Origin: Candidatus Peribacteria bacterium
GTDB lineage: Bacteria > Patescibacteriota > Gracilibacteria > Peribacterales > Peribacteraceae
Assembly: GCA_003483925.1 (NCBI GenBank)
Contig: DMXL01000004.1
Location: forward strand, 8,242-72,241
DNA length: 64,000 bases
Reading direction: 5' to 3'
Under the pieces are notes generated by a model. That model did no database searches. It worked only from the letters and a program-made list of their open reading frames with translations, and had not been told where the DNA came from. The position numbers and the translations under genes are program-made. Positions 4,588 through 50,504 of the stretch are shown here, piece by piece; position 1 is the first letter of the stretch, and each line of letters begins with the position of its first letter.

Positions 4588-4996
4588 TGGTGGAGATGCC
4601 GGGAATTGAACCCGGGTCCAACGTGTAGACGTCCTGTCCGTAGAGTCATGTCCTTTCCGATTCTCTCCTGACATAAGGAAGGGACAAGGAAAGTCGGGAG
4701 AGTGTTGACGCGAAGTGTCGGATCCGCCGTCGCGTCACGCGGCGGACCAACCTCGCTGATGACGCCTCATCCCTTTAGCGAGGATGGAAGGAGAGACGCG
4801 TTCCCGGATAAAGGGGAACTTAAGCGGCTACGAGCTGCAGGTCGTTCAGCCGAAGCTGTCCGACGATGTTGCGCGCAGTCGCAAGAATAGATGATTTGGC
4901 ATCTATAGAGTGCAGCAGCGGGTGACGGAAGATGCTGCGATCCCGGACTGAGACGAAGAGCGCCTATGAATCACGCTGTCGAAGCCTGTCATCCCC
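4588..4996 (-). ncRNA. ssrA: tmRNA (transfer-messenger RNA)
   Basis: The minus strand starts GGGGATGACAGGCTTCGACAGCG and ends CCGGGTTCAATTCCCGGCATCTCCACCA, a tRNA-Ala-like acceptor/T-arm with encoded CCA. The internal tag frame at 4820-4876 reads ARNIVGQLRLNDLQLVAA-stop. Confidence 0.9.
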
Positions 4997-10052: not shown

Positions 10053-13000
10053 TTACTGCTTCTGAAACCGGATCGTCACCTTCCTCCCGTCAAGTTCGAC
10101 CGTTAGCGGCTTCCCCTCATTGGCTTTCAGCTTGGACCGCGTTTCCTCTTCGAGGAGCGCTTTGCACGTTCCCACGATATCGTCGAATCCTTTGACGTCG
10201 AGATCGATGATGTCCGTGAAGGAGAGACCCGAGTCCTTGCGCATCTTCTGCACGGCGCGGATGAGATCACGCACGCAGCCCTCGAGTTTGAGATCAGTGG
10301 ATACGGTCGTGTCCAGTCCGACGACGACCCCGCGGTCCGCGGCGGCATCCATCCCTTCCTTCCCGCGGTAGGCGATCTGCACTTCTTCGGGGGCAAGGCG
10401 CTCTTCTCCGATCAGGATCATCCCGTCGGGTTGCACGTCGAATTCCCCGCGCTTGCCGGCGGCAATGATCTCCTGCACGCGCGCGCCGAGGCGCGGTCCG
10501 ACCTTGCGCGCATCCACGAGCGCGACCGTCTGCGCGAGCTTGCCCGGATCCGTGATGAAGGAGAGCTCTTTCACGTTCATCTCCTGGCGCAGGAGAGATC
10601 TGTCCTCGTCGGTAAGCGCGATGGAAGCGAAGGCGGGCGGCAGGGCGATGACTGCGCGCTTGAGCGGCTGGCGCGCCTTCATGTTCTTCTCCGAGCGCAC
10701 CGCATGCCCGAGCGAAACGATGAGCCGCAGCAGGCGGGTCTTCGCAAGGAGCTTATTTTCCGCATCGGTGAGTTTGCGGGCATCCGGCCAATCGGTTAAG
10801 TGCACCGAGCCGTGCTCCTGTGTGACGAGATTCAGGTAAATCGCATCGCTGATGTACGGGCAGAACGGAGCGAGGAGCTGGCTCATCGTCAGCAGAACGT
10901 CGTGGAGTGTCGAGAGCGCAGAGAGCCGGTCTTCCTCGTCCGCTTCCATCTCCGAGGTGTAGCTTGCGTCGGGGGCATCGATGCTCGCCTTGCCGGCGAA
11001 CCGGCGGCGCGATAAGCGGATGTACCAGTTCGTGAGTGCGTCGATCGTTTCGAAGAGCTCCGCGCAGGTGGCGGAGAGATCGTAGCGGTCGAGCTGCTCG
11101 GTCATGCGGTTACAGAGATCCTGCATCTCCGCGCGGATCCAGCGGTCGAGGGGATGAGCGGAGTGCTTGCGGTTTTCGACGGGCTCGTACTTCGCGGCAT
11201 TCGCGTACGTGACGAAGAAGCTGTAGGCGTTCCACAGTGGCAGGAGCACGGAGCGCACGCTCTCCTCCACGAGCTTGCCCGAGAAGCGCAGGTCCTCGCC
11301 GCGCACCGCGGACGAGCTCATGAGGGTGAAACGCACCGCGTCGGCGCCGTGCTTCTCGACGAGCTCCATCGGTTCGGGATAGTTCTTGAGCCGCTTGCTC
11401 ATCTTCTTCCCGTCCTCGGCCAGCACGATGCCGTTGACCACGCAATGCTGGAAGGCGGGTTGATCGAAGAGCGCCGTCGAAAGTACCATGAGCGTGTAGA
11501 ACCATCCGCGCGTCTGATCCATGCCCTCTGCGATGAAGTCGGCGGGGAAACCGGGAGGAAGCGACCCGGCTGGTTCGGACTCAAAGGGATAGTGCGATTG
11601 GGCGTAGGGCATCGAGCCCGACTCGAACCAGCAGTCGAAGACTTCGGAGACGCGTTCCATCGTGCCGCCGTTCGTTGCCTGCCACATGATCGAATCCACG
11701 GTCTCCCGGTGCAGGTCGAGCTGCGACTGCGTCGTGTGATCGAAGAAGAACGTGTAAGGGTCGGCGTAGACGGGGTAGGGCTGGTGGGAGAGCTTCACGG
11801 GATCCTCCTTCGTGAAGACATGACGGATATTGAGCAGCGGGTCCGCGTGCGTGACGAGGACGATGTGCTGTCCGCGGTGTCTCGGCAGGATCTCCGTCAG
11901 GAAGCTCGAGATGCGCACCTGCACGTCCTGCCACGTCTCCATCCCCGGGAAGTGGTAGATGCTCTCGGGGGCACTCTGCTGCAGTTTGTGCGCACGACGC
12001 GCTTTCACGAGGGAGAGATCCGAGAAATCGACGGTCTTCCCTTCGTACGAACCGAACCCCACCTCACGCAGACGATCGTCCGTGATCACCGGAGCATTGG
12101 TCGCCTCGGCTATCATTTTCGCCGTCTGCTGCGTGCGATCGAGCGGGGACGCATAGATGACCGAGATTTCCGCTCCGGCAAGGGCTCGGCCCGTTTCTTT
12201 TGCCTGTTTTTTCCCGCGAGCCGTGAGCGAGGTGCCGGGGACTGCCCCCTGGTACACCGGGATGAGGTTTCCTTCGCTCTCGCCGTGGCGCAGCACGGTG
12301 ACTTTCGTGAAGCGCTGGGGCGAGCGGGTCATGAGCTCATCGCGGCTCGAGATCACTTCGATCTCTCCCGACTTCGAGCAGCGCCAGATGGGCAGCGGCG
12401 TTCCCCAGAAGCGGTTTCTGGAGATCGCCCAGTCGCGCGCACCCTCGAGCCACTTGCCGAACCGCCCGGAGCGCACGTGATCGGGCACCCACTCCGTTTT
12501 CGCATTGGCCTTGAGGAGCCCCTCCTTGATTTCTTCGACCTTCACGAACCATGAGGAGGTCGTGTAAGGAAGGAGAGGGGTATCGCAGCGCCAGCAGTGC
12601 GGGTAGCTGTGAGTGAAGCTGAAGGAGGAGAACACCCTTCCCCGATCTTTCAGCTTGCCAATGATAGCCCGATCGGTCGCTTGCGGGTCTTTCCCTTCAG
12701 GCTTGGCTTGCATGCCGGCGAAGTCCTTCACGTCGCCGGAAAAAATGCCGTCGATGCCGAGATGCCACACGACATCCACGTCCTCTCCCACGGCGATGCG
12801 GTAACTGTCTTCACCCAGGCAGGACGTGGCATGGACGATGCCCGTTCCCTCGGCATCGGAGACTTCCACGTCGTCGTAGATCACGACTTTGAAGACGCGG
12901 TCGCCGTAGGTTTCCTTCGGTCTCTTCTTGCTGCTCGGCTTGTCGACGAAGTAGGGGAAGAGCGGCTCATATTTTTTCCCCGTCAGATCCTTCGGTTTCA

Positions 13001-13826
13001 CAGGACCAATGATTTGGAATTCCTTCCCTTTGAACACCTGATCCAGAAGCTTCCGGGCGAGAATGTATCGCTTGCCCTCCGATTCCACGAGCGCGTACTC
13101 GATGTTCCTGCCGATCGCGAGCCACATATTCCCCGGGAGCGACCAGGGGGTGGTCGTCCAAGCGAGGAGAGCGGTCTTCGGGTCATCCTTCAGGGGAAGG
13201 GTCACGATGACGGACAGGTCCGTCCGGTCCCGGTAGCCCTGTGCAACTTCGAAGTTGCTCAAGGGTGTGGCGCATCGGGGACAGATGTACATCGGCTTAT
13301 ACCCTTCGTAGACCAATCCCTTCCTGTGCAATTCCGAGAACACCCACCAGATGGACTCCATGTAGTCCGGGTCCATCGTCCGGTAGTCATTGTCCATGTC
13401 CACCCACCGTCCCATGCGCTCGACGACTTCGCGCCACTCCTTCGTGAAGCGCTGCACGGACTGGGCGCAGAGGCGGTTGAAGGCGCCGATACCCATCTCG
13501 CGGATCTGCTTGTGGGAGGCGATCTTGTACTCCTTCTCGATCAGATTCTCGACGGGCAGCCCGTGGCAGTCCCAGCCGAATCGCCGCTCCACTCTCTTGC
13601 CGCGCATCGTCTGGTAGCGGGGGATGACATCCTTGATCGTGCCGGCGAGCAGATGCCCGTAGTGGGGCAGCCCCGTGGCGAACGGCGGGCCGTCGTAGAA
13701 GCTGAAGGAATCCTCCGGACTGCGGTTGGAGATCGAGCGCTTGAAGATATCTTCCTCTTTCCAGTACTTGAGGATGCCGTGCTCCATGGCCGGCAGGGAT
13801 TGCCTCGGATCGACGGGGTCGAACAT
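10053..13826 (-). CDS. ileS: Isoleucyl-tRNA synthetase with an inserted histidine-phosphatase domain
   Basis: HIGH-type PHYGHLL and KMSKS-type KKMSKRL are present, along with WFESGSMPYAQ and WISRNRFWGTP-like blocks. I chose the start at MFDPVDPRQSL. For the insert at 11721-12314, see findings. Confidence 0.9.
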   Translation of the reverse strand: MFDPVDPRQSLPAMEHGILKYWKEEDIFKRSISNRSPEDSFSFYDGPPFATGLPHYGHLLAGTIKDVIPRYQTMRGKRVERRFGWDCHGLPVENLIEKEYKIASHKQIREMGIGAFNRLCAQSVQRFTKEWREVVERMGRWVDMDNDYRTMDPDYMESIWWVFSELHRKGLVYEGYKPMYICPRCATPLSNFEVAQGYRDRTDLSVIVTLPLKDDPKTALLAWTTTPWSLPGNMWLAIGRNIEYALVESEGKRYILARKLLDQVFKGKEFQIIGPVKPKDLTGKKYEPLFPYFVDKPSSKKRPKETYGDRVFKVVIYDDVEVSDAEGTGIVHATSCLGEDSYRIAVGEDVDVVWHLGIDGIFSGDVKDFAGMQAKPEGKDPQATDRAIIGKLKDRGRVFSSFSFTHSYPHCWRCDTPLLPYTTSSWFVKVEEIKEGLLKANAKTEWVPDHVRSGRFGKWLEGARDWAISRNRFWGTPLPIWRCSKSGEIEVISSRDELMTRSPQRFTKVTVLRHGESEGNLIPVYQGAVPGTSLTARGKKQAKETGRALAGAEISVIYASPLDRTQQTAKMIAEATNAPVITDDRLREVGFGSYEGKTVDFSDLSLVKARRAHKLQQSAPESIYHFPGMETWQDVQVRISSFLTEILPRHRGQHIVLVTHADPLLNIRHVFTKEDPVKLSHQPYPVYADPYTFFFDHTTQSQLDLHRETVDSIMWQATNGGTMERVSEVFDCWFESGSMPYAQSHYPFESEPAGSLPPGFPADFIAEGMDQTRGWFYTLMVLSTALFDQPAFQHCVVNGIVLAEDGKKMSKRLKNYPEPMELVEKHGADAVRFTLMSSSAVRGEDLRFSGKLVEESVRSVLLPLWNAYSFFVTYANAAKYEPVENRKHSAHPLDRWIRAEMQDLCNRMTEQLDRYDLSATCAELFETIDALTNWYIRLSRRRFAGKASIDAPDASYTSEMEADEEDRLSALSTLHDVLLTMSQLLAPFCPYISDAIYLNLVTQEHGSVHLTDWPDARKLTDAENKLLAKTRLLRLIVSLGHAVRSEKNMKARQPLKRAVIALPPAFASIALTDEDRSLLRQEMNVKELSFITDPGKLAQTVALVDARKVGPRLGARVQEIIAAGKRGEFDVQPDGMILIGEERLAPEEVQIAYRGKEGMDAAADRGVVVGLDTTVSTDLKLEGCVRDLIRAVQKMRKDSGLSFTDIIDLDVKGFDDIVGTCKALLEEETRSKLKANEGKPLTVELDGRKVTIRFQKQ

Positions 13827-13930
13827 GGTTCCAAGTGTATGCGGTCGGGGGCGTTTCGGAAACTTCAGATGGGAGAATTCGCGGTCAAGTGATTGGACAG
13901 GTCTGTATTCGGGGTACAATCCACCCCTTT

Positions 13931-15939: not shown

Positions 15940-16959
15940 ATGGACGACGATTTAGACGACAACAGCGGCGGGGGAGGGGGACTGGTGCGGCTGGATAACC
16001 TCGAACAAGTCGTGGAGGAGGCCGCTGCAGCTGTGCAGAGGAATGAGTTAATCATGCAGCATTTCAATAGGTTGAGTGCGGATGTCCGGCGCAGTGTCAT
16101 TGCGTTCGTAACGAAGCCCAGTCGGCCACAGATTATCCGTCCCGATACGTTCGCAGAGAGGGAAGAGCTGGTTGCATGCGCGCGCGATCTCTTCGTGCGG
16201 CATCAAAAACTCAACAGAGCCAAGGACTTCGCTCAGGCGATTGAAGCGTGGAAAGCGGGGAATGGTGACGAATTCAAAAGATGGAGGGTTATTGCACAGT
16301 CCGTTGGCGGGTTCCTCGATGATTACCCGCAAGAGGAATTTGAGGGGCGCTTGGAAGATCTTCAACATTGGGCCATTGCGCGTGCCGCTCCCGTACGGGA
16401 GGGGGCGGGGGAACAGCAATTCGTGGCGGATATCCAAATCCATCTTCCCGATGATCATGATGCGGCGTCTGCTCCGGCGATTGCGCTCCTTCCGAAGAGA
16501 GAGGGCGATCTCAAATACGCCACAGATATGGGGAGGAGCTTGCTTGCAGGATTCGATCTGCGGAGGGTGGCTGTTGTCTCGGATATTTGCGCGGATGATT
16601 CATACGCGCACTGCGGATTCGCATCAGCTGCCCGGGATGCGGGTATCCGACGCGTGGAGGAGCTGAACGAGGGGCGAAAGATCCCCATAGACACTGTTCT
16701 TGCAGCGGTCTTCTCGATCAAGGGGCTGAAGAAACAGGACGGAGAGGTGATCCGCCCGCCGCTGGCCCTCAGTAATCTCATCAGCCTGAAGATCCATACG
16801 ATGAGCGGCAAATATCCCGCTGAGCTTGTCTGGTGCCTCACCGGTCGAAACGTCCCGGTTCATCTGGATGGGGATGATCCGACAAAACCGCCGAGTGAAT
16901 TGATTACTGATTGGGAAGTCTGTGCAACAACTTTGAATGCGGAGGGACAGGACCTATGA
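15940..16959 (+). CDS. Hypothetical protein (ORFan)
   Basis: ORF with an ATG at 15940 (MDDDLDDNSGGGGG). Acidic N-terminus, no TM span, no motif recognised. Confidence 0.5.
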   Translation: MDDDLDDNSGGGGGLVRLDNLEQVVEEAAAAVQRNELIMQHFNRLSADVRRSVIAFVTKPSRPQIIRPDTFAEREELVACARDLFVRHQKLNRAKDFAQAIEAWKAGNGDEFKRWRVIAQSVGGFLDDYPQEEFEGRLEDLQHWAIARAAPVREGAGEQQFVADIQIHLPDDHDAASAPAIALLPKREGDLKYATDMGRSLLAGFDLRRVAVVSDICADDSYAHCGFASAARDAGIRRVEELNEGRKIPIDTVLAAVFSIKGLKKQDGEVIRPPLALSNLISLKIHTMSGKYPAELVWCLTGRNVPVHLDGDDPTKPPSELITDWEVCATTLNAEGQDL

Positions 16960-19686
16960 GCGTGTGGCTGCGGAGTAGTACCACAGGAACACGAGGAGCA
17001 GCGGAGCGGCGATGAACGGAGTGAATGAGTGGGTGGAGAGAGCTTCGCCGATGATCGTGGAGAGGCAGACGAAGGGCAGCGCACGGTCGAGCAGGTCGCT
17101 CTTCACGCGGCGCATGGATTCGTAGTAGAGGCCGTACGGGAGCACCGAGAATACGATGACGAACAGGATGCTTCGCAACAGATCATTTGCGGGGAGTGTT
17201 TGAATGGTGGTGAAGGGGAGCAAGAGCAGCACGAACGGCATGCCGATGATGGAGAGCCAGAAGAGGAAGGCGGGGTAGCGTGCGTGGATTATCCCACGCT
17301 GATACCGGGCGCTCACTTCGGAGTAGAGGGCGAATCCGAGAGAGCTGACAGCTGCATAGAGGAGGCCTAAGGGGGAGGTGCCCTGGAGTAGGATGAGCAG
17401 GATGATGCCAAGTGTGATGATCACGAAGGAAAGGTGAAGCTGCCACCAGTGCATGGTGCGTACGGCGATATTTTTAAGAAGGGCGATGACGACGAGCCCC
17501 TCGATGATGAAGAGGATGTACTGGATGGGGGAGATGAGCTCCAGAGCGAGATAGGAACAGAATGCTGTGAGGAACAATGCGAGGGCGGAGGTGACGAGCG
17601 CGGGATGGCGGGGAGAGAGCGGCTTGAGTTTCTGGTTCGAGAACCTGCTCTGCAGTCCGTAGAGGATCGTCGTGGCGATAAACAGTGTGACGAAGCGGAT
17701 GAAAGTGAGGTCGGAAGGGGAAATGTCGGACTTCCAGAGGAGCAAGTGCGCGAAGACCGGATCGAGACCCCACAGGACGATGAGGATGAAGGAGGCGGCG
17801 ATGGATATATGCAGCGCAGTTCTCGTTACCAACGACCAATGTTCGTCCGGGAGAACGGTCTTCAGGAGCGCTCGCAATTCCTGCGATTGTTCGGCGGAGA
17901 GATCATAATCAGCGGTGATCTGGCAGTCCCCGTTCAGATGATGGAATGTAAGAGAGCGGGGAACGCCTATTCTCGTGGCTTTGCTGACGATGTCCGTCAA
18001 TGACGTCGGGAAACGTACGGAGAGATTCCAGCGCCTCTTCTCCGGCTGCGGTTTGCGGGATTTATGTTCCGGGAAGAGAGTACGCGCCGCCCTCTCTGCC
18101 TGGATCTTCCCTTCCGCGATCTGCTCATAGAGAGTTTCGAACGAGGAGATGCCGAGAGCGGAGAGGCGTTGCAGGAGGGCGGTCGTCTCCAGTTCGCCCC
18201 ATTCCACTTTCGCGTAGGTACGCACGGCGTGTTCGAGAAGGCTCTTCCCCAACATCATCTTCTGGCTTTCCGGGACTTGTGCGAGGCCTTGTCGGATGAA
18301 CGCGGAAGCAAGGCCCGTTCGCACGTTCCGGAGCCAGGGGAGCTCGACTTGCGGAAGATCCGCAAACGCAGCACTCACGCTGCAGCCATTCGACAATTCC
18401 TCGTAAAAGGGGACCTTGGTTCCGTTGATGAAAATATCTTTGGTGGTGAGACCTCTTTCCCCGAAGAGGTAGAAGATGGCATCGAGAGCCGTGGCGCTCG
18501 TGGGGAGAAGTTGCACGGTATCGTTCGGTCCGTGAATGGTGATGGATTCGCGGAGGATGTCGCTCTTGAGACTCTCCCAAAATTGTTCGCTTCGATCCTC
18601 GGAATCCTTCGAGAGGGCCGTGATGTGTTCGGTCCACGGGAGGTACGCCATGACGCCTGCAGCTTCGTTCTCGAAACACTTGGAAGCGATGCCCTTGCGG
18701 GCATACACGTGCATCTCGTGCGTGCGAATCTTGCAGCGGACACGCGTGCCGTCTTCGAGAATGATGGTCGTGTGCAGTCCTTGGTAACCGTTGATCTGCC
18801 GATGGTTGATGTAGTCCTCGAAGGAGAGAATCTCCTGCTGCCAGAGCTCGTGGAGCAAGCCCAGCACGCGATAGCATTCATCGGAGGTTTGTGTGAGGAA
18901 TACGATGGTATGTGCGGAGATGCCGGTGGCGGCGAAATCGCCGACGAGCACCTGGTTTCGCAGGCTCTCCCATGGCTTTTGTTCGAAGAGTACTTCAATG
19001 GGAAGGCTCTGCGGCGCAATCTTCGTGAGAGCATCCTTCATCTTCTGGGAGATCTTTTTCCCCTGAGGTTCGTTCTGCTTTCGCAGGGACTTGAGTTGTT
19101 GCAGGAGCTCCGGTTCGAGAACGCCTAAGCAATATTCTTCGAGCTCATCGCGCAGTTCCTGCATGCAGAGGCGATCTGCGATGGTCACGTAGACTTCACT
19201 CGTTTCTCTCGCGAGGGCTTCCTGTCTCTCGGGAGAAACGAACTCGATGGTTTGCATATTGTGGAGGCGGTCGACGAGCTTGAGGACGATAATGCGCACA
19301 TCTTTCTTCAGGAGGGTGAAGATCTTGCGGAGCGTCTCGATGCGATCGTCGAGGGTCGGATGTCCGTCGACGTCCTCGGGCATGAGCTTCGTCACGCCAT
19401 CGATGAGATCGGCGACGGTCGGGCCGAACCGCGCTCGCGCATCTTTCACGGTGAAGGGGGTGTCTTCGATGGTGTCATGGAGGAGGGCGGCGATCAGCGA
19501 GTCGGCGTCCGCCCCCATATCTGCGAGCATGTCGGCCGTTGCGAGCGGATGGGTGAAATAGGGGGCTCCTGATTTTCGAAGTTGGTTTCGGTGGAGCTCC
19601 ATGCCGAGTTCGAACGCCTGTCGCACGCGCTCCTGATCAGCGGCGGAAAGATGCCGAATATGCGTGCGGAACTCATTCCACTGCAT
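16954..19686 (-). CDS. RelA/SpoT homologue (HD hydrolase, degenerate synthetase-like, TGS, ACT-like) fused to a C-terminal 10-TM DMT/EamA-like domain
   Basis: HD blocks THPLATADML, LLHDTIEDT and DRLHNMQT. Synthetase-like block NGYQGLHTTIILEDGTRVRCKIRTHEMH. TGS-like block ITIHGPNDTVQLLPTSATALDAIFYL. Roughly ORF aa 623-910 form ten hydrophobic spans. Confidence 0.8.
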   Translation of the reverse strand: MQWNEFRTHIRHLSAADQERVRQAFELGMELHRNQLRKSGAPYFTHPLATADMLADMGADADSLIAALLHDTIEDTPFTVKDARARFGPTVADLIDGVTKLMPEDVDGHPTLDDRIETLRKIFTLLKKDVRIIVLKLVDRLHNMQTIEFVSPERQEALARETSEVYVTIADRLCMQELRDELEEYCLGVLEPELLQQLKSLRKQNEPQGKKISQKMKDALTKIAPQSLPIEVLFEQKPWESLRNQVLVGDFAATGISAHTIVFLTQTSDECYRVLGLLHELWQQEILSFEDYINHRQINGYQGLHTTIILEDGTRVRCKIRTHEMHVYARKGIASKCFENEAAGVMAYLPWTEHITALSKDSEDRSEQFWESLKSDILRESITIHGPNDTVQLLPTSATALDAIFYLFGERGLTTKDIFINGTKVPFYEELSNGCSVSAAFADLPQVELPWLRNVRTGLASAFIRQGLAQVPESQKMMLGKSLLEHAVRTYAKVEWGELETTALLQRLSALGISSFETLYEQIAEGKIQAERAARTLFPEHKSRKPQPEKRRWNLSVRFPTSLTDIVSKATRIGVPRSLTFHHLNGDCQITADYDLSAEQSQELRALLKTVLPDEHWSLVTRTALHISIAASFILIVLWGLDPVFAHLLLWKSDISPSDLTFIRFVTLFIATTILYGLQSRFSNQKLKPLSPRHPALVTSALALFLTAFCSYLALELISPIQYILFIIEGLVVIALLKNIAVRTMHWWQLHLSFVIITLGIILLILLQGTSPLGLLYAAVSSLGFALYSEVSARYQRGIIHARYPAFLFWLSIIGMPFVLLLLPFTTIQTLPANDLLRSILFVIVFSVLPYGLYYESMRRVKSDLLDRALPFVCLSTIIGEALSTHSFTPFIAAPLLLVFLWYYSAATRS

Positions 19687-28017: not shown

Positions 28018-29229
28018 ATGGAGTCCTTCGCATCCATTCCGCAGGCGCTTGCATCGATCCGCGACGGCCGCATGATCATCGTGGTGGATGACGAGGGGCG
28101 TGAGAACGAAGGGGATCTCATCATGGCAGCCGAGCATGTGACGGACGAGGCGATGGCCTTCGTCATCCGGCACACCGGAGGAGTGGTCTGTCTTGCTCTT
28201 TCGCATGCGATCGCCGACCAGCTGGATCTGCCGCCGATGGTAAGTAGAAACACGTCCGCCTTCGGGACGCCGTTCACGGTGAGCATCGAAGCGCGCGAGG
28301 GGGTGACCACGGGCATTTCCGCGCACGATCGCGCGGAGACGGTTCGCCGCGCCGTGCAGCCCGCCACGCGGCCGCAGGATCTCAATCGACCCGGACATGT
28401 CTTTCCGCTGCGTGCACACGACGGCGGTGTCCTGTGCCGTGCAGGCCACACGGAAGCGACGGTGGACCTCTGCAGGCTCGCGGGACTCAAGCCGGGCGGG
28501 ATCTTAAGCGAGCTCATGAATGACGACGGAACGACCATGCGGCTTCCGAAGATCCGTACATTTGCTTCGGAGCATAACCTCCTCATCGTTTCCATCGCGG
28601 ATCTCATCGCGTACCGCCGCACCTCCGAGATACTTGTGAAGCGGGTCGCCCAGACGGAACTCACGACGGAGACCGGTCTCTGGATCATGATCGTCTACGA
28701 GGATACGTGCGATACGGGAGAGCACATTGCTCTCGTGAAGGGGGACATCGGCTCGGGCGCCCCCGTGACGGTCCGGGTGCATTCGGAATGTCTCACGGGG
28801 GACGTGCTCGGATCGCTGCACTGCGACTGCGGATCGCAGCTGAAGACCGCCATGCGCATCATCGAGCAGGAGGGGCGCGGTGTGGTTCTCTACATGCGTC
28901 AGGAGGGTCGTGGAATCGGACTCACCAACAAGATTCGTGCTTATGAGCTCCAGCGCAGCCACGGTCTCGATACGGTGGAGGCGAATGAACGACTCGGTTT
29001 CCCGGCGGATCTCAGAGATTACGGAACCGGAGCGCAGATCCTCAAGGATCTCAAGGTGGAGAAGATCCGGCTGCTCACGAACAATCCCAAGAAGGTGGTG
29101 GGCCTCTCCGGCTACGGGATGGCCATCGTCGAGCAGGTACCCATCGAGCTCAAGGAGCGCACGGATCTCCAGCGCAAGTATTTGCGAACGAAGAAAGAGA
29201 AGATGGGACATGTGATCCGGTCGGTGTGA
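28018..29229 (+). CDS. ribBA: Bifunctional 3,4-dihydroxy-2-butanone-4-phosphate synthase / GTP cyclohydrolase II
   Basis: DDEGRENEGDLIMAAE is the DHBP synthase block. RVHSECLTGDVLGSLHCDCGSQL is the GCH II zinc site. Confidence 0.92.
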   Translation: MESFASIPQALASIRDGRMIIVVDDEGRENEGDLIMAAEHVTDEAMAFVIRHTGGVVCLALSHAIADQLDLPPMVSRNTSAFGTPFTVSIEAREGVTTGISAHDRAETVRRAVQPATRPQDLNRPGHVFPLRAHDGGVLCRAGHTEATVDLCRLAGLKPGGILSELMNDDGTTMRLPKIRTFASEHNLLIVSIADLIAYRRTSEILVKRVAQTELTTETGLWIMIVYEDTCDTGEHIALVKGDIGSGAPVTVRVHSECLTGDVLGSLHCDCGSQLKTAMRIIEQEGRGVVLYMRQEGRGIGLTNKIRAYELQRSHGLDTVEANERLGFPADLRDYGTGAQILKDLKVEKIRLLTNNPKKVVGLSGYGMAIVEQVPIELKERTDLQRKYLRTKKEKMGHVIRSV

Positions 29230-46401: not shown

Positions 46402-49305
46402 TCATGATTTTTCGATAATTGCTTTTTCCTCTTCCGTCAGCCCATACAACTCATACACCAACTCATCAATCTTCCGATCCGTTACCTCGATTTGACGCTT
46501 AAGGGACTCTTGATCGTGCGGAGTTTTCGGATGCAGTTTGTGTAACGAAAGCATTTTATCAACAAGATTGATGATTTGTTCTTTAACATGCATATTTGAA
46601 TTTATGCATAGCGGCAAGCTATTTAACTCGCCAATTCGTATCTCTGGGAAAGTGTTTTCCGTACGGTCATATCTCTTCTTGAAATAGAAAGCTATTAGCC
46701 GACTACCGAGAAGAGCTGCGACATATTTGCTATCAACACTTCCATTCCGGGGCTTTACCGTGTGCAGTAATTGATCTGCAATTAATAAATCCGAGACTGG
46801 ACACAAAACTAATCGATCTCCGACAATCCTACGAATTAATACTCTCGGTCCAGAGAACAGGTCTATCGTTCTTGGTTCTGCTAGATGCACACCGTATTTA
46901 ATCCATGACCCACCAGAATAGATTTGATAAGGTGTGATGTGCTTTCCTCGAATATAGGGATAAAAACTGGAATCAATTTTTTTATCTGATTCGAATAGTT
47001 TTTGTTTTGCCTCCTGTTCTGTCTGAGGCGGGAGACCTTTTCCAACTTGATAAACCTTTACGCCAAATCTTACATCACATGTATTTGATAATGGCTCTCC
47101 AATTTTTTCAATTTTATTTAAAATAGAAATGTCCGTTGCAGAAACAGATAAATTAAAAACTAGATTGGGATTTGATCGCCAACACATCGGAGTAATCTTA
47201 TGAGTTTTGAACTCAAGTTGGCTCTCATAATTCTCAATAACGATTGGTGTGTTTAGATCCGATGATTTTCTGGAAATAGCAATGAACACAATAGGTAATA
47301 CTGTTGCACCTGAAAAAACACTGACATTTCGAAAGTCACCTATTCTTTGAATCTGGCTAACTTCCATGACATATTTTCTTAATAAATAATAATGTTCATT
47401 GTTTAGCCAAGTATTTGGAGTAATAAATCCTAAATAACCGTCTTTTCTAAGTAAGTCATATGCCTTTTGAAGAAAAAGGGCATATAGATCATATTGATCT
47501 GTCATACAGGAAAATTTTGTTTTGAAATACGAGCGTAATTTCCGCATTTCATCTTCCCATTCTCTTCCTGCTAAGTATGGAGGATTCCCGATCACCGCAT
47601 CGAACCCCGGATTTGCGCGTTTGAAGACCTGCGGGAAAGCCGGTTCCCAATCGAAGACATTGATGCGCTGACGATCGGTATCTTCTGTCGCAAGGAGTGT
47701 CTGTTGCTCACCGTCATAGAAATCCGACCCGATGAGAGAATTGCCACACTTGATATTGGCCCCCAGGTCCGGCAGCACACGCTCACGCATGCCGGAGAGC
47801 TGCTGCTGCGCCGTCAGCCCCGTTTCGCCCTCCAAGACTTTGAGCAAGAGCGAGAGCTTGGTGACCTCCACAGCCTGCGGATCGATGTCCACGCCGAAGA
47901 TAGTGGAGAGGAGGATGCGCTTGCGCTCGGAGATGGAAAGGCGGTAGCCCGTGTCGTGAGCCCGCACGTCTGGTTCGACGGGCTCACCATGACGTGCTGA
48001 GATGCTACAAAGCTCCTTCTTCCACTTCTTTGGATCGTGTTCCAAGTAATACTTCAAATGCCAGTCGAGCAGGTACTGGTACGCACCGAGGAGGAAGGAA
48101 CCGGAGCCGCAGGCGGGGTCCACGATCTTGAGCTCCGCGACTTTCTTGGGGGTCTTGCTTTCGAGGAGCTTGCCCACCGTGTGCTCGACGATGTAGTCCA
48201 CGATGTACTTGGGCGTGTAGTACACGCCGCCCGCCTTGCGGACTTCGGGCTTCTCCTCGACTTTGGCATGGTGGCCTTCCGTGAGGCGGATGACTTTTCC
48301 CAGGAATTGCTCGTAGACATGCCCGAGGATGTCAGGCGGGATGACGGCGAACGCATAGGGGCCGTCGTAGAGACTGGCGATAATTTCCTTGAGCACCGCG
48401 TCATCAATCGTGAGATGCGGCGTAACCATATCCGGCGGCTCGCCTTGGCCCTTCTCCTCTCGGAAGTGGAAGAGCCCGGAGTTGTAGCGGCCATCGGCGT
48501 CGCGGAAGAGCTGCTTCAAGCGCTCGTAGGTATCGGAGCCGCTCATTTCCGCCATGAGCCTGCCGTACTGCTCGATCCCTCGATCTTCGCAGATCCTCAG
48601 GAAGATCATGCGGTCGATGGTCTGCTGGACGGCGTAGTTCATCTCCTGCTGACCCAGCGTGGGATTGCGATTAGCGATGTTCTTCGCAAGAAGCTCCCGC
48701 CAGTGCTCGATCTCCTTCAAAAATTCATCATCCACTTCCTGTGTGCCGTGCCGCTTCTCGCCCGCATACTTGTCGAAGGAACCTTGGAGAACGGCATCCT
48801 TGGAGAAGATAGCCGCAATCTCATCCCAGCGTGCCGCATACTCCTCGAAAGTGAAGAGATGAATGCGGGCAACCGATGCCTTGTCGGCGCTCTTGGGACG
48901 GCTGCGGCAGTCATAGACGGCGAACTCCTCGAAGTCCGTGAGGATGGAGAGGGGGAGCTTGGCGGACCACGCGTAGCGACGTAACTGGTAGGCGGGCCCC
49001 GGCGCACCCTTGATATCCACGGATGGCTTCTTGGCTTCTACGAAGAATTTGCGATCGTGTCCGATGCGCATGCAGTAGTCGGGAGCCTTCATAGCATCCC
49101 CGATGCGAATGGCATCTTCGTGGATCACTTCTTTGAAAGCCTCTGCATGTCCTTGGGTATTGCGTACGTCCCACCCCAATGTTTCGAGGAAAGGATCGAG
49201 GAACTCCACGCGTAGCGAGGCTTCTTTGTATCGCGACGCCTTCAGTTCATCACGCTTGCGCTTGAATTGCTCGACAAGGGTAAGTATTTCCTTTGGTGCG
49301 GGCAT
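46402..49305 (-). CDS. Type IIG restriction-modification enzyme (PD-(D/E)xK nuclease + gamma-class N6-adenine methyltransferase + specificity domain)
   Basis: N-terminal nuclease block APDYCMRIGHDRKFFVEAKKPS. Methyltransferase motif I is VDPACGSGSFLLGA and motif IV is VIGNPPYL. The long C-terminal region is TaqI/Eco57I-type. Confidence 0.85.
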   Translation of the reverse strand: MPAPKEILTLVEQFKRKRDELKASRYKEASLRVEFLDPFLETLGWDVRNTQGHAEAFKEVIHEDAIRIGDAMKAPDYCMRIGHDRKFFVEAKKPSVDIKGAPGPAYQLRRYAWSAKLPLSILTDFEEFAVYDCRSRPKSADKASVARIHLFTFEEYAARWDEIAAIFSKDAVLQGSFDKYAGEKRHGTQEVDDEFLKEIEHWRELLAKNIANRNPTLGQQEMNYAVQQTIDRMIFLRICEDRGIEQYGRLMAEMSGSDTYERLKQLFRDADGRYNSGLFHFREEKGQGEPPDMVTPHLTIDDAVLKEIIASLYDGPYAFAVIPPDILGHVYEQFLGKVIRLTEGHHAKVEEKPEVRKAGGVYYTPKYIVDYIVEHTVGKLLESKTPKKVAELKIVDPACGSGSFLLGAYQYLLDWHLKYYLEHDPKKWKKELCSISARHGEPVEPDVRAHDTGYRLSISERKRILLSTIFGVDIDPQAVEVTKLSLLLKVLEGETGLTAQQQLSGMRERVLPDLGANIKCGNSLIGSDFYDGEQQTLLATEDTDRQRINVFDWEPAFPQVFKRANPGFDAVIGNPPYLAGREWEDEMRKLRSYFKTKFSCMTDQYDLYALFLQKAYDLLRKDGYLGFITPNTWLNNEHYYLLRKYVMEVSQIQRIGDFRNVSVFSGATVLPIVFIAISRKSSDLNTPIVIENYESQLEFKTHKITPMCWRSNPNLVFNLSVSATDISILNKIEKIGEPLSNTCDVRFGVKVYQVGKGLPPQTEQEAKQKLFESDKKIDSSFYPYIRGKHITPYQIYSGGSWIKYGVHLAEPRTIDLFSGPRVLIRRIVGDRLVLCPVSDLLIADQLLHTVKPRNGSVDSKYVAALLGSRLIAFYFKKRYDRTENTFPEIRIGELNSLPLCINSNMHVKEQIINLVDKMLSLHKLHPKTPHDQESLKRQIEVTDRKIDELVYELYGLTEEEKAIIEKS

Positions 49306-49412: not shown

Positions 49413-50504
49413 CTAAACGATGGCTATTAGCTTTGGAAATACAAATAATGCAGGCCTTCCCCGTACGCCCTTTCTGACCAAATCAATGGTTCCGCCCTTT
49501 TGGAGCTGCTGAAGTATACGAAGAGCAGTTGCACGGGGAATCCGCGAAGTAGTTATAAAGTCAGTGCTGTTGAAAATTGGATTTTTAAAAAGAAAATCAA
49601 GAGCTTCAACCGTGTATTGCGAATGGGTTAGGGCACGGAGGCGCTCCTTCTTCTTGTCGTAGAGCTGATGTATAGCCCTTGCCTTTTGAATATTCATCTT
49701 TGATTGTTCGATTACGGCTCTTAGGAAATAGCTGATCCACCCATTCCAGTCATCATGTTGAGAAATCCCAAGAAGGCCATCGTAATATTCTCGCCGATGA
49801 CTCTCAAAATATTCACTAATGTAGAACATGGGGGACGATAGGACACCCTTGAAAGAGAGAAAGAGTGGCATGAGCATTCTTCCAACGCGACCGTTGCCGT
49901 CTGCAAAAGGATGAATGAGTTCAAACTGAGCATGAATAATTGCGAGCTGTACGAGCTTGTCTTTCTCATCTCCATGTATGTACTTTTCAAGATTGGAAAA
50001 ATAGCTCTCTACTTCTTGTGGAGGTGGAGGAATATAAAAGGCTTCCTCAATGGGTCTGCCAGGTCTGCCAATGTGTACTTGCGATCTCCTGAAATTTCCT
50101 CGATCGGCATTATGGCCTCGAACATTCTCCAATAGAATGGCATGAGCTTCTTTAATAAGACGCCCGCTCAACGAGATATTTTCCATGTTTTGAATAGAGT
50201 GACGCATTGCTCTCCGATAATTGAGAATGAGATCAATATCTCCGCCCTTTTTATTCTCTCTTTCCGGTTCAGCCTCAAATCGCAGCACATCCTCGAGAGA
50301 GGCTTCTGTTCCTTCGATCTTGGAAGAAAGAACGGCCTCGTTTGTTTCTAAAGGAGAGAGAAGGACTTGCGGATTTGGAAGGCTTTGTAATAGGCCATCG
50401 AAGCGGGCGACTTCCGCATTTGCGGGTCCGATGAGATGGACGAACCTCTCCCATTGGAGCTCAGTAAGTGGGAGGTGTTTTGGATCAAATGGCTTGATCA
50501 TCAA
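49413..50504 (-). CDS. Fic family protein with C-terminal winged-helix
   Basis: The Fic motif is HPFADGNGRVGRMLM. An N-terminal Fic_N-like region is also present. Confidence 0.9.
   Translation of the reverse strand: MMIKPFDPKHLPLTELQWERFVHLIGPANAEVARFDGLLQSLPNPQVLLSPLETNEAVLSSKIEGTEASLEDVLRFEAEPERENKKGGDIDLILNYRRAMRHSIQNMENISLSGRLIKEAHAILLENVRGHNADRGNFRRSQVHIGRPGRPIEEAFYIPPPPQEVESYFSNLEKYIHGDEKDKLVQLAIIHAQFELIHPFADGNGRVGRMLMPLFLSFKGVLSSPMFYISEYFESHRREYYDGLLGISQHDDWNGWISYFLRAVIEQSKMNIQKARAIHQLYDKKKERLRALTHSQYTVEALDFLFKNPIFNSTDFITTSRIPRATALRILQQLQKGGTIDLVRKGVRGRPALFVFPKLIAIV

What the first reader, a model, noticed from the sequence alone, without database searches (positions are those of the whole stretch)
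11721..12314. Complete histidine-phosphatase (PGAM-type) domain inserted inside isoleucyl-tRNA synthetase
The ileS ORF is about 1257 aa, roughly 200 aa longer than the type-2 IleRS enzymes I know. The class I signatures are intact (PHYGHLL, KKMSKRLKN). Both flanks of the extra segment are ordinary IleRS sequence (GTPLPIWRCSKSGEIEVISSRDEL | insert | QLDLHRETVDSIMW...VFDCWFESGSMPYAQ). The ~198-aa insert (ORF aa 536-733) carries, in order, all four catalytic blocks of the histidine phosphatase superfamily: VLRHGESEGN, SPLDRTQQTA, LREVGFGSYEG and VLVTHADPL. There is no stop or frameshift at either junction, so it would be made as one polypeptide. I know of no described aminoacyl-tRNA synthetase with this domain. 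What it dephosphorylates (a nucleotide, an alarmone, a phosphorylated tRNA end) is pure speculation.
Basis: partly seen in the sequence, partly recalled or inferred. Interest (0 to 1): 0.8.

Follow-up and report, generated by a model that had tools for sequence, protein, structure and literature searches.

The report
Phosphatase domain nested inside isoleucyl-tRNA synthetase
The isoleucine-charging enzyme of this groundwater Peribacteria (CPR) bacterium really does carry a complete, apparently active phosphatase domain spliced into a surface loop; this is not an assembly error but a conserved, widespread and so far undescribed habit of CPR bacteria, and what the phosphatase acts on is unknown.

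Summary
Confirmed. Window 10053-13826 (-) encodes a 1257-aa type-2 IleRS. A ~200-aa histidine-phosphatase domain (Pfam His_Phos_1, E = 8e-37) replaces an ~8-residue loop of sub-domain CP3.

- Catalytic Arg513, His514, Asn520, Arg564, Glu588 and His660 are intact.
- The AlphaFold model is confident (pLDDT 94) and closest to PhoE and PspA phosphatases.
- It is not a chimera: the identical protein lies on 21 independently assembled contigs.
- The 120 best Peribacterial relatives all carry the domain, as do 117 of 120 hits to a Parcubacterial profile.
- The insert is as conserved as the IleRS core.

Unexpectedly, relatives carry one to four such domains at five or more sites in IleRS. Most Peribacteria have two, and the window enzyme seems to have lost the second.

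Automatic pipelines already flag the architecture (JGI: [quoted passage not shown]), but nine literature searches found no description.

The best reading is a functional IleRS carrying an autonomous phosphomonoesterase. The substrate is unknown. It matches no characterised subfamily (dPGM, PspA and CobC cut-offs are all missed).

The feature is real, conserved and uncharacterised, and of moderate to high interest.

The parts
10053..13826 (-). ileS coding sequence, 1257 aa plus stop (ATG start)
   Evidence: ORF. Identical to database protein P0121 (1257 aa, 100% identity and coverage). NCBIfam TIGR00392 ileS scores 830 bits against a cut-off of 621.
12330..13826 (-). IleRS aa 1-499: first Rossmann half, CP core, CP1 editing domain, CP2 and the start of CP3
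   Evidence: Pfam tRNA-synt_1 covers aa 18-500. The segment aligns to human and yeast IleRS residues 7-489. Coordinates checked.
13647..13667 (-). HIGH signature (PHYGHLL, aa 54-60)
13143..13160 (-). Editing-site threonine-rich motif WTTTPW (aa 223-228)
   Evidence: W223, T224-T226 and W228 are invariant in 88 homologues.
11721..12329 (-). Whole extra segment, aa 500-702 (203 aa), inserted in CP3
   Evidence: It has no counterpart in solved IleRS and replaces about 8 residues. In yeast IleRS CP3 is residues 459-526 (PMC7955072).
11808..12299 (-). His_Phos_1 Pfam match (aa 510-673)
   Evidence: E = 7.8e-37. AF2 model pLDDT 94.4. Foldseek top hits are PhoE 1h2e and PspA 4ij5/4ij6.
12285..12290 (-). 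Arg513-His514 of the RHG motif; His514 is the predicted phospho-accepting nucleophile
   Evidence: They align to R8-H9 of PspA 4ij5. Invariant in all copies. Codons checked.
12135..12137 (-). Arg564 (phosphate pocket)
   Evidence: Invariant.
12063..12065 (-). Glu588 (predicted proton donor)
   Evidence: Conserved in 118 of 120 close homologues (the other 2 are unaligned) and in 24 of 26 distant ones.
11847..11849 (-). His660 (second catalytic histidine)
   Evidence: Invariant.
11931..12032 (-). Cap segment of the phosphatase (aa 599-632, VDFSDLSLVKARRAHKLQQSAPESIYHFPGMETW), the likely substrate-specificity region
   Evidence: Strongly conserved among 120 Peribacterial HP1 domains and absent from HP2.
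11661..11684 (-). Site B (aa 715-722, WQATNGGT): the loop where most Peribacterial relatives carry a second, and sometimes a third, His_Phos domain; empty in the window enzyme
   Evidence: The core tree suggests secondary loss in the window lineage.
10053..11720 (-). IleRS aa 703-1257: end of CP3, second Rossmann half, KMSKS, anticodon-binding domain and C-terminal DUF5915 domain
11382..11408 (-). KMSKS signature (KKMSKRLKN, aa 807-815)
   Evidence: K808-M-S-K811 is invariant.

Best explanation
Shown:
- The gene encodes a normal type-2 (eukaryote-like) isoleucyl-tRNA synthetase whose CP3 sub-domain hosts a complete, independently folding histidine phosphatase of the PhoE/PspA kind.
- The synthetase signatures (HIGH, KMSKS, editing motif) and all six phosphatase catalytic residues are intact.
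- These residues are as conserved as the synthetase core across CPR bacteria.

Inferred:
- Both activities work in one polypeptide.
- The phosphatase uses the standard family chemistry. His514 attacks a phosphomonoester to form a phospho-histidine intermediate. Arg513, Asn520, Arg564 and His660 hold the phosphate, and Glu588 donates the proton.
- Because it keeps a full, conserved substrate cap like the small-molecule enzymes of the family, it most probably hydrolyses a small anionic phosphomonoester (a metabolite or nucleotide-type compound), not a protein or RNA end.
- IleRS serves as an essential, constitutively made, insertion-tolerant scaffold.

The window's enzyme is the one-domain form of a family that usually carries two domains. 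The specific substrate, and the reason for the coupling to IleRS, are not known.
For: - Domain identity: Pfam E = 8e-37. The best solved relatives are PspA 4ij5 (E = 6e-22) and PhoE 1h2e, with all catalytic blocks aligned. The AF2 model has pLDDT 94.4 and pTM 0.91. Foldseek gives target-normalised TM-scores of 0.77-0.81 to PhoE and PspA.
- Host intact: TIGR00392 scores 830 bits against a 621 cut-off. The aa 1-1078 model has pLDDT 89.5 and pTM 0.84, with junction blocks at 91-95, and superimposes on IleRS 1ile (TMt 0.90), 6ldk (0.85) and 7d5c (0.81).
- Real and selected: the exact protein is on 21 contigs. All 120 best relatives carry PF00300, as do 117 of 120 hits to a non-Peribacterial profile and 14 species-representative genomes.
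- Catalytic residues are invariant in every copy.
- Insert identity to the window is 64% against 66% for the N-terminal core and 50% for CP1.
- The cap segment is strongly conserved.
- Insert-less close relatives exist (P0501 and P0507), so the domain is not needed for the synthetase fold.
Against: - No substrate can be read from the sequence. Every characterised subfamily model is missed (PspA 103 bits against 350, archaeal dPGM 102 against 225, CobC 88 against 163, pgm_1 36 against 82).
- The same domain family has been inserted or duplicated in IleRS at five or more sites and in up to four copies. That is hard to explain by a passive 'scaffold' alone and hints at a functional tie to IleRS or tRNA.
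- The insertion point lies just after the CP2-3 linker that lines the tRNA CCA pocket.
- I could not obtain model coordinates, so the orientation of the phosphatase active site relative to the tRNA path is unknown.
- I could not check whether this is the only IleRS in the genome.
- The hit lists are ranked with queries that contain the domain, so they over-represent fusions.
Confidence: 0.6

Rival explanations
1. The phosphatase is functionally coupled to aminoacylation. It acts on the tRNA acceptor end (removing a 3'- or 2'-phosphate or pyrophosphate left by nucleases or toxins, so that tRNA-Ile can be charged) or on a nucleotide bound at or released from the synthetic site.
For: - The insertion sits in CP3, immediately after the CP2-3 linker that forms part of the tRNA CCA / reveromycin pocket (PMC7955072).
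- The domain has been placed repeatedly in IleRS at five or more sites, in one to four copies, in different CPR lineages, which suggests selection for physical proximity.
- A free-standing relative overlaps the end of an ArgRS gene in a Staskawiczbacteria genome (L013).
- The insert is mildly basic (pI 8.8 against 6.0 for the core) and has a conserved Arg/Lys-rich cap, KARRAHK.
Against: - The domain has the full cap typical of small-molecule enzymes (PhoE, PspA), not the stripped-down form of SixA-like macromolecule phosphatases (family knowledge).
- Some insertion sites (before the anticodon-binding domain, site D) are far along the sequence from the catalytic site.
- Only IleRS hosts appeared among the long proteins in the top 150 representatives.
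- The yeast IleRS-tRNA paper does not describe CP3 as contacting tRNA.
- No geometry was available.
Confidence: 0.2
2. The domain is kept mainly for a non-catalytic role: dimerising IleRS (PhoE/PspA-type enzymes are dimers, and tandem HP1-HP2 could be an internal pseudo-dimer), sensing a phospho-metabolite to regulate IleRS, or replacing the CP3 zinc knuckle structurally.
For: - Peribacterial enzymes have lost the four-Cys knuckle that flanks the site in Parcubacterial relatives. The consensus 'W.C..C ... C.KC' contrasts with 'WRCSKSG ... WQATNGG' in the window.
- Free-standing tandem di-His_Phos proteins are common among the nearest relatives.
- High pLDDT at both junctions suggests a fixed rather than floppy attachment.
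Against: All catalytic residues are invariant over deep divergence (about 25-30% identity between lineages) in every copy. That is not expected for a purely structural or binding role.
Confidence: 0.1
3. The domain is the organism's cofactor-dependent phosphoglycerate mutase (or its phosphoserine phosphatase), supplying a missing step of central metabolism from inside IleRS.
For: - JGI auto-names some homologues 'bisphosphoglycerate-dependent phosphoglycerate mutase'.
- The best NCBIfam matches are PspA and archaeal dPGM.
- The Peribacteria genome paper infers glycolysis and serine synthesis but never mentions a mutase or phosphatase.
Against: - All equivalog cut-offs are missed by a wide margin.
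- The glutamate block reads E-V-G-F-G-S-Y-E-G, as in PhoE/PspA/CobC-type phosphatases, not the E-R-H-Y-G of mutases (sequence plus family knowledge).
- Structural neighbours rank phosphatases above mutases (TMt about 0.8 against about 0.65).
- I could not inspect the rest of the genome for other PGM or PSP genes.
Confidence: 0.08
4. Assembly chimera, or a frameshifted fusion of two neighbouring genes.
For: None beyond the a priori possibility in metagenome assemblies.
Against: - The identical 1257-aa protein is on 21 contigs from different assemblers and samples, including a 505-kb NCBI contig.
- IleRS sequence lies on both sides of the domain in a single frame.
- Hundreds of diverged homologues have the same junctions.
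- There is no compositional break.
Confidence: 0.01

Closest known systems
PhoE (Geobacillus stearothermophilus YhfR, PDB 1h2e/1ebb) and PspA (Hydrogenobacter thermophilus metal-independent phosphoserine phosphatase, PDB 4ij5)
   Same: They share the fold, size (about 200 aa) and catalytic residues, including the E-x3-G-x-[WY]-x-G block. They are the best sequence matches (E = 6e-22 and 5e-17) and the best structural matches (TMt 0.77-0.81).
   Different: Those are free-standing, dimeric, soluble enzymes, whereas this domain is nested in a synthetase. Identity is only about 27-32%. The PspA equivalog cut-off is missed (103 bits against 350). The cap sequence (DFSDL..KARRAHK..PESIYHFPGMETW) is specific to the Peribacterial HP1 clade.
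Type-2 (eukaryote-like) isoleucyl-tRNA synthetases: yeast and human cytoplasmic IleRS, T. thermophilus IleRS, Priestia megaterium IleRS2, MupA/MupB
   Same: The host is a member. TIGR00392 is passed. E-values to 9w01, 8wnd and 8c8v are 1e-230 to 1e-203. It has the same C-terminal DUF5915-type domain, and the model superimposes with TMt 0.8-0.9.
   Different: None of the solved or described enzymes has anything but a short loop at this CP3 position. The window enzyme also lacks the CP3 Cys4 knuckle that Parcubacterial relatives retain.
Synthetases carrying extra enzyme or adaptor domains (for example NCBIfam NF040702 'isoleucine--tRNA ligase, N-acetyltransferase domain-containing', and the GST, WHEP and EMAPII appendages of eukaryotic aaRS)
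   Same: The principle is the same: an aaRS acquires an accessory domain (domain list in PMC11580382).
   Different: Known accessory domains are mostly terminal appendages. Here a full enzyme is nested inside the catalytic body, sometimes in two to four copies at several sites. The published aaRS domain catalogue does not list a phosphatase.
Bifunctional RNase H / acid phosphatase of actinobacteria (NCBIfam NF005567, Rv2228c type)
   Same: A CobC/PhoE-type His_Phos domain is fused to a nucleic-acid enzyme. The insert matches its phosphatase half (93 bits).
   Different: That is an end-to-end fusion with a different partner. The cut-off of 326 bits is not met.

Membership tests
Histidine phosphatase superfamily, branch 1 (Pfam PF00300) | Profile score above Pfam's gathering threshold | tested here: met
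   127.3 bits in the whole protein and 131.5 bits for the insert alone, against a 21.7 cut-off.
Histidine phosphatase superfamily, branch 1 (Pfam PF00300) | RHG motif with the nucleophilic His, plus a second Arg, a Glu proton donor and a C-terminal His | tested here: met
   R513-H514-G515, N520, R564, E588 and H660 align to the catalytic residues of PspA 4ij5. They are invariant across homologues.
Histidine phosphatase superfamily, branch 1 (Pfam PF00300) | Alpha/beta fold of the family, complete | tested here: met
   AF2 pLDDT 94.4 and pTM 0.91. Foldseek probability 1.00 and TMt about 0.8 to 1h2e and 4ij5.
Histidine phosphatase superfamily, branch 1 (Pfam PF00300) | Phosphomonoesterase or mutase activity through a phospho-histidine intermediate | not testable with these tools
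   Needs enzymology.
Cofactor-dependent phosphoglycerate mutase (dPGM; TIGR01258, NF038349) | Score above the curated cut-off of the equivalog or subfamily model | tested here: not met
   pgm_1 scores 35.5 bits against 81.7. Archaeal dPGM scores 101.6 against 225.
PspA-type phosphoserine phosphatase (NF045917) | Score above the curated cut-off | tested here: not met
   102.9 bits against 350.
CobC alpha-ribazole phosphatase (TIGR03162) | Score above the curated cut-off | tested here: not met
   87.7 bits against 162.9.
Isoleucyl-tRNA synthetase (TIGR00392) | Equivalog score above the cut-off | tested here: met
   830.1 bits against 621.4, in two stretches interrupted by the insert.
Isoleucyl-tRNA synthetase (TIGR00392) | Class I HIGH and KMSKS signatures and the CP1 editing motifs | tested here: met
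   PHYGHLL, KKMSKR, WTTTPW and GTGIVH...D341 are present and invariant or nearly so.
Isoleucyl-tRNA synthetase (TIGR00392) | Type-2 (eukaryote-like) subtype | tested here: met
   The best solved relatives are eukaryotic cytoplasmic IleRS, P. megaterium IleRS2 and T. thermophilus IleRS. Type-1 enzymes score far lower (1e-90 against 1e-230). It has a DUF5915 C-terminal domain.
Isoleucyl-tRNA synthetase (TIGR00392) | Sole or functional IleRS of the organism; aminoacylation activity | not tested
   Only 64 kb of the genome was available, and no second ileS is in the window.
Mupirocin-resistance IleRS MupA/MupB (NF000257, NF000258) | Score above the curated cut-off | tested here: not met
   649 and 656 bits against 1900. 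The resemblance is generic to type-2 enzymes.
Anti-phage defence proteins (PADLOC) | Any model hit | tested here: not met
   No families match the whole protein or the insert.

The most novel reading that the evidence does not exclude
CPR bacteria have repeatedly built active histidine phosphatases into IleRS because the phosphatase works on the tRNA or aminoacylation pathway itself. Examples would be healing phosphorylated or pyrophosphorylated tRNA 3' ends, or destroying a phosphorylated inhibitor or by-product at the synthetic site. That would be a previously unknown class of synthetase-embedded repair or quality-control activity.
Probability: 0.15. Interest if true: 0.85.

Novelty: new variant of a known kind. 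Interest (0 to 1): 0.58.

Why it matters
Aminoacyl-tRNA synthetases are among the most conserved enzymes. Accessory domains in them have repeatedly turned out to carry real biology, such as editing, signalling and complex formation.

Here a second, apparently active enzyme is nested in the catalytic body of IleRS across a huge, uncultivated bacterial radiation. It occurs in one to four copies at several sites and is under the same purifying selection as the synthetase.

If the phosphatase is only a passenger, it is still a clear natural example of domain nesting in an essential enzyme. It would also be a candidate for a 'missing' metabolic phosphatase in reduced CPR genomes. If it acts on tRNA or on an aminoacylation-linked compound, it would be a new kind of synthetase function.

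It also matters practically. Annotation pipelines call these proteins 'class I tRNA ligase family protein' or 'hypothetical protein', so a phosphatase activity is being overlooked in metabolic reconstructions of CPR genomes.

Tried and rejected
- **Assembly artefact:** rejected.
- **Recent horizontal insertion:** no G+C discontinuity, and the domain is ancient within the clade.
- **Subfamily assignment by NCBIfam:** every equivalog cut-off was missed, so no substrate call is possible.
- **Defence-system link:** no PADLOC hits.
- **Literature:** nine full-text searches with different term sets found nothing on the fusion. The founding Peribacteria genome paper does not mention it.
- **Cultured host:** The two non-CPR loci (Phycicoccus MAG L015 and Moryella indoligenes L022) are ordinary free-standing His_Phos genes, so no cultured host was found.
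- **Domain tree:** the neighbour-joining tree of phosphatase domains is star-like and has no support values. I use it only for the HP1-versus-HP2 distinction, which the consensus comparison backs.
- **Orientation of the active site:** the prediction tool returns confidence and secondary structure but no coordinates, so the position relative to the tRNA path could not be measured.
- **Other copies in the window:** a six-frame search found no other His_Phos gene in the 64 kb.
- **Ranking bias:** the hit lists were ranked with queries that contain the domain. 'All 120' and '117 of 120' therefore overstate prevalence, and insert-less relatives do exist (P0501, P0507).
Full report
**1. The observation**

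The minus strand of the window holds one long open frame, 10053..13919 from the first TTG. The ATG at 13826 gives a 1257-aa protein that is identical in length and sequence to a database protein (P0121).

Window 11721-12314 is aa 505-702 in ATG numbering.

Pfam finds tRNA-synt_1 split in two around a His_Phos_1 match at aa 510-673 (E = 7.8e-37, 127 bits against a cut-off of 21.7). Anticodon_1 and DUF5915 follow. The insert alone scores E = 3.9e-38.

NCBIfam's IleRS equivalog is passed (830 bits against 621). Alignment to solved IleRS structures shows that query residues 500-702 replace a loop of about eight residues (human 9w01 489-497, yeast 8wnd 488-498). G+C content does not change across the junctions.

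**2. Not an artefact**

The exact 1257-aa protein is called on 21 contigs. These come from ENA groundwater assemblies, two JGI metagenomes and an NCBI genome (GCA_003451275.1, a 505-kb contig of 'Candidatus Peribacteria bacterium'). The neighbours are the same in each: a Peptidase_M20 gene and a PF04020 membrane protein. Hundreds of diverged homologues share the same junctions.

**3. What the insert is**

*Sequence.* The closest solved relatives are the metal-independent phosphoserine phosphatase PspA of Hydrogenobacter (4ij5, E = 6e-22) and PhoE of Geobacillus (1h2e/1ebb, E = 5e-17). The RHG, SP..R, E...G.[WY].G and (S/T)H blocks all align.

*Structure.* An AlphaFold2 model of aa 485-725, built with 128 homologues, is very confident (mean pLDDT 94.4, pTM 0.91). 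Foldseek ranks PhoE and PspA first (target-normalised TM 0.77-0.81), ahead of true mutases (about 0.65).

*Subfamily.* No characterised subfamily model is passed: PspA 103 bits against 350, archaeal dPGM 102 against 225, CobC 88 against 163, pgm_1 36 against 82. It is therefore a bona fide branch-1 histidine phosphatase of the PhoE/PspA kind. 'PGAM-type' holds only at superfamily level.

**4. Where it sits**

In yeast IleRS, CP3 is residues 459-526. The CP2-3 linker (453-465) forms part of the pocket that binds reveromycin A and the tRNA CCA end (PMC7955072). The insertion point corresponds to yeast 488-498, so it is inside CP3, about 25 residues after that linker.

A model of aa 1-1078 is confident (pLDDT 89.5, pTM 0.84). 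Both junction blocks score 91-95. Its body superimposes on solved type-2 IleRS: 1ile TMt 0.90, 6ldk 0.85, 7d5c 0.81. The nested domain is therefore compatible with an intact synthetase.

The tool gives no coordinates, so I could not determine which way the phosphatase pocket faces.

**5. Distribution and evolution**

*Breadth.* With the full protein as query, all 120 best hits (57-69% identity) carry PF00133 plus PF00300. They are named Peribacteria, Peribacteraceae, Peregrinibacteria or Patescibacteria, and include the closed genome of Ca. Peribacter riflensis. A profile of six non-Peribacterial fusions returns 117 of 120 hits with PF00300, named Parcubacteria, Nealsonbacteria, Moranbacteria and Patescibacteria.

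A truncated scan of species-representative genomes adds Spechtbacterales, Minisyncoccia, Paceibacteria, Yanofskybacteria and a 'Saccharibacteria' MAG. In 14 of those loci the domain is nested at the same site in one long frame.

Both rankings used queries containing the domain, so they overstate prevalence. Insert-less relatives do exist (P0501, P0507).

*Copy number and sites.* Among the 120 Peribacterial proteins, 20-22 have one domain, 96-98 have two and 3-4 have three, depending on the counting method. Other lineages carry up to four (P0253). The sites, in window numbering, are:

| Site | Position | Notes |
|---|---|---|
| A | after ~aa 499 | the window's site; nearly universal |
| B | ~aa 715-722 | Peribacterial HP2 and HP3 |
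| C | ~aa 745-760 | after the HYPFE loop |
| D | ~aa 884-890 | just before the anticodon-binding domain |
| E | ~aa 433-455 | seen only in P0253 |

*HP1 versus HP2.* These are different subfamilies, with about 24% identity between consensus sequences. HP1 has a distinctive conserved cap. HP2 is a generic RHGETDWN...HGG type and is more variable.

*The window's state.* On a tree of the IleRS core with phosphatase columns removed, one-domain proteins are scattered among two-domain ones. The window's nearest clade of ten holds nine two-domain enzymes. This is a neighbour-joining tree without support values. It suggests the window enzyme lost HP2 secondarily.

*Nearest relatives of the insert.* An exhaustive search of 1.84 billion representatives with the insert alone finds 23,404 relatives. 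Only nine have E <= 1e-30. The long ones I classified (P0241-P0247) are IleRS fusions or fragments, and P0248 is a free-standing tandem protein. Next come free-standing tandem di-His_Phos proteins of about 410 aa (one from a Woesearchaeota MAG) and ordinary 200-aa enzymes at 30-40% identity.

**6. Selection**

Arg513, His514, Asn520, Arg564, Glu588 and His660 are invariant wherever aligned, in first, second and third copies. Across 88 one-domain enzymes from several CPR lineages, R513, H514, S560, R564 and H660 are as invariant as the KMSK loop.

Within Peribacteria, identity of each region to the window is:

| Region | Mean identity to window |
|---|---|
| Phosphatase insert | 64% |
| N-terminal IleRS core | 66% |
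| Second catalytic half | 75% |
| CP1 editing domain | 50% |
| C-terminal domain | 54% |

The domain is under purifying selection as an enzyme.

**7. Mechanism**

*Shown:* a functional-looking type-2 IleRS with a complete, conserved phosphatase nested in CP3.

*Inferred from family knowledge:* His514 forms a phospho-enzyme intermediate, Arg513, Asn520, Arg564 and His660 bind the phosphate, and Glu588 is the acid/base.

I commit to an autonomous small-molecule phosphomonoesterase riding on IleRS, at about 0.6 for the whole statement. The reasons are these:
- The domain keeps the full cap of the small-molecule enzymes.
- Its nearest structural relatives are metabolite phosphatases.
- Insert-less IleRS relatives exist.
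- Some insertion sites are remote from the active site.

The main rival (about 0.2) is a phosphatase coupled to tRNA or aminoacylation. It is favoured by the repeated targeting of IleRS, the position next to the CCA-pocket linker, a free-standing relative overlapping argS in L013, and the mildly basic, Arg/Lys-rich cap. A structural, dimerising or regulatory role (about 0.1) and a 'missing' dPGM or PSP (about 0.08) are less likely. A chimera is excluded.

**8. Novelty**

Automatic pipelines already record the architecture. JGI uses 'isoleucyl-tRNA synthetase/broad specificity phosphatase PhoE' or '/bisphosphoglycerate-dependent phosphoglycerate mutase'. PGAP uses 'class I tRNA ligase family protein', and the window's own protein is a 'hypothetical protein'.

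I found no paper describing it. The Peribacteria genome paper does not mention it, and a 2024 catalogue of aaRS domains lists no phosphatase.

I rate it a new variant of a known kind (a synthetase with an accessory domain). It is real, widespread in CPR bacteria, uncharacterised, and surprising in its multiplicity. Interest is about 0.58.

Noticed in passing
related proteins P0122, P0130, P0216, P0188, P0253, P0254, P0268, P0277 (not in the window): IleRS of other CPR bacteria carries two, three or even four catalytically intact His_Phos domains, at five or more different insertion sites. The window's enzyme is the reduced one-domain form.
   Followed up: yes
L013:2453-3061 (+) and L013:834-2489 (+): In a Ca. 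Staskawiczbacteria genome, a free-standing 202-aa His_Phos of the same CPR flavour starts inside the last codons of a 551-aa arginyl-tRNA-synthetase-like gene. This is a possible second link between this phosphatase type and class I synthetases, from one case only.
   Followed up: partly
window 16954-19686 (-): A 910-aa RelA/SpoT homologue (HD_4 plus RelA_SpoT domains) has a weak EamA-like transporter match at its C-terminus (aa 773-864), an unusual combination.
   Followed up: no
window 4588-4996 (-): A tmRNA gene (Rfam 92.5 bits) has a long predicted tag peptide, AKSSILATARNIVGQLRLNDLQLVAA.
   Followed up: no
window 46402-49305 (-) and 49413-50504 (-): A 967-aa fused restriction-modification enzyme of the Eco57I/MmeI type lies next to a Fic/DOC family protein.
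   Followed up: no
window 11154-12554 (+) and 12597-13892 (+): Two long ORFs (466 and 431 aa) run antisense to ileS. They are most likely shadow ORFs of a G+C-rich gene, not genes.
   Followed up: no
related proteins P0120 and P0424; NCBIfam NF040702: IleRS appears to host other foreign domains too. Examples are a TMP-TENI (PF02581) match in fragment P0120, a Zn-ribbon (PF09723) in P0424, and a curated NCBIfam model for a GNAT-containing IleRS.
   Followed up: no
L018 (Ca. Yanofskybacteria MGLG01000014.1): The open frame begins inside the phosphatase domain and continues into the C-terminal half of IleRS. This could be an ileS split at the insertion or a frameshift in the assembly.
   Followed up: no
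related proteins P0248, P0251, P0264 and about 30 others: Free-standing tandem di-His_Phos proteins of about 405-430 aa are among the nearest relatives of the insert. One is from a Woesearchaeota (DPANN) MAG.
   Followed up: partly
window 28018-29229 (+): A bifunctional RibBA gene (DHBP synthase plus GTP cyclohydrolase II) fits the riboflavin pathway reported for Peribacteria.
   Followed up: no
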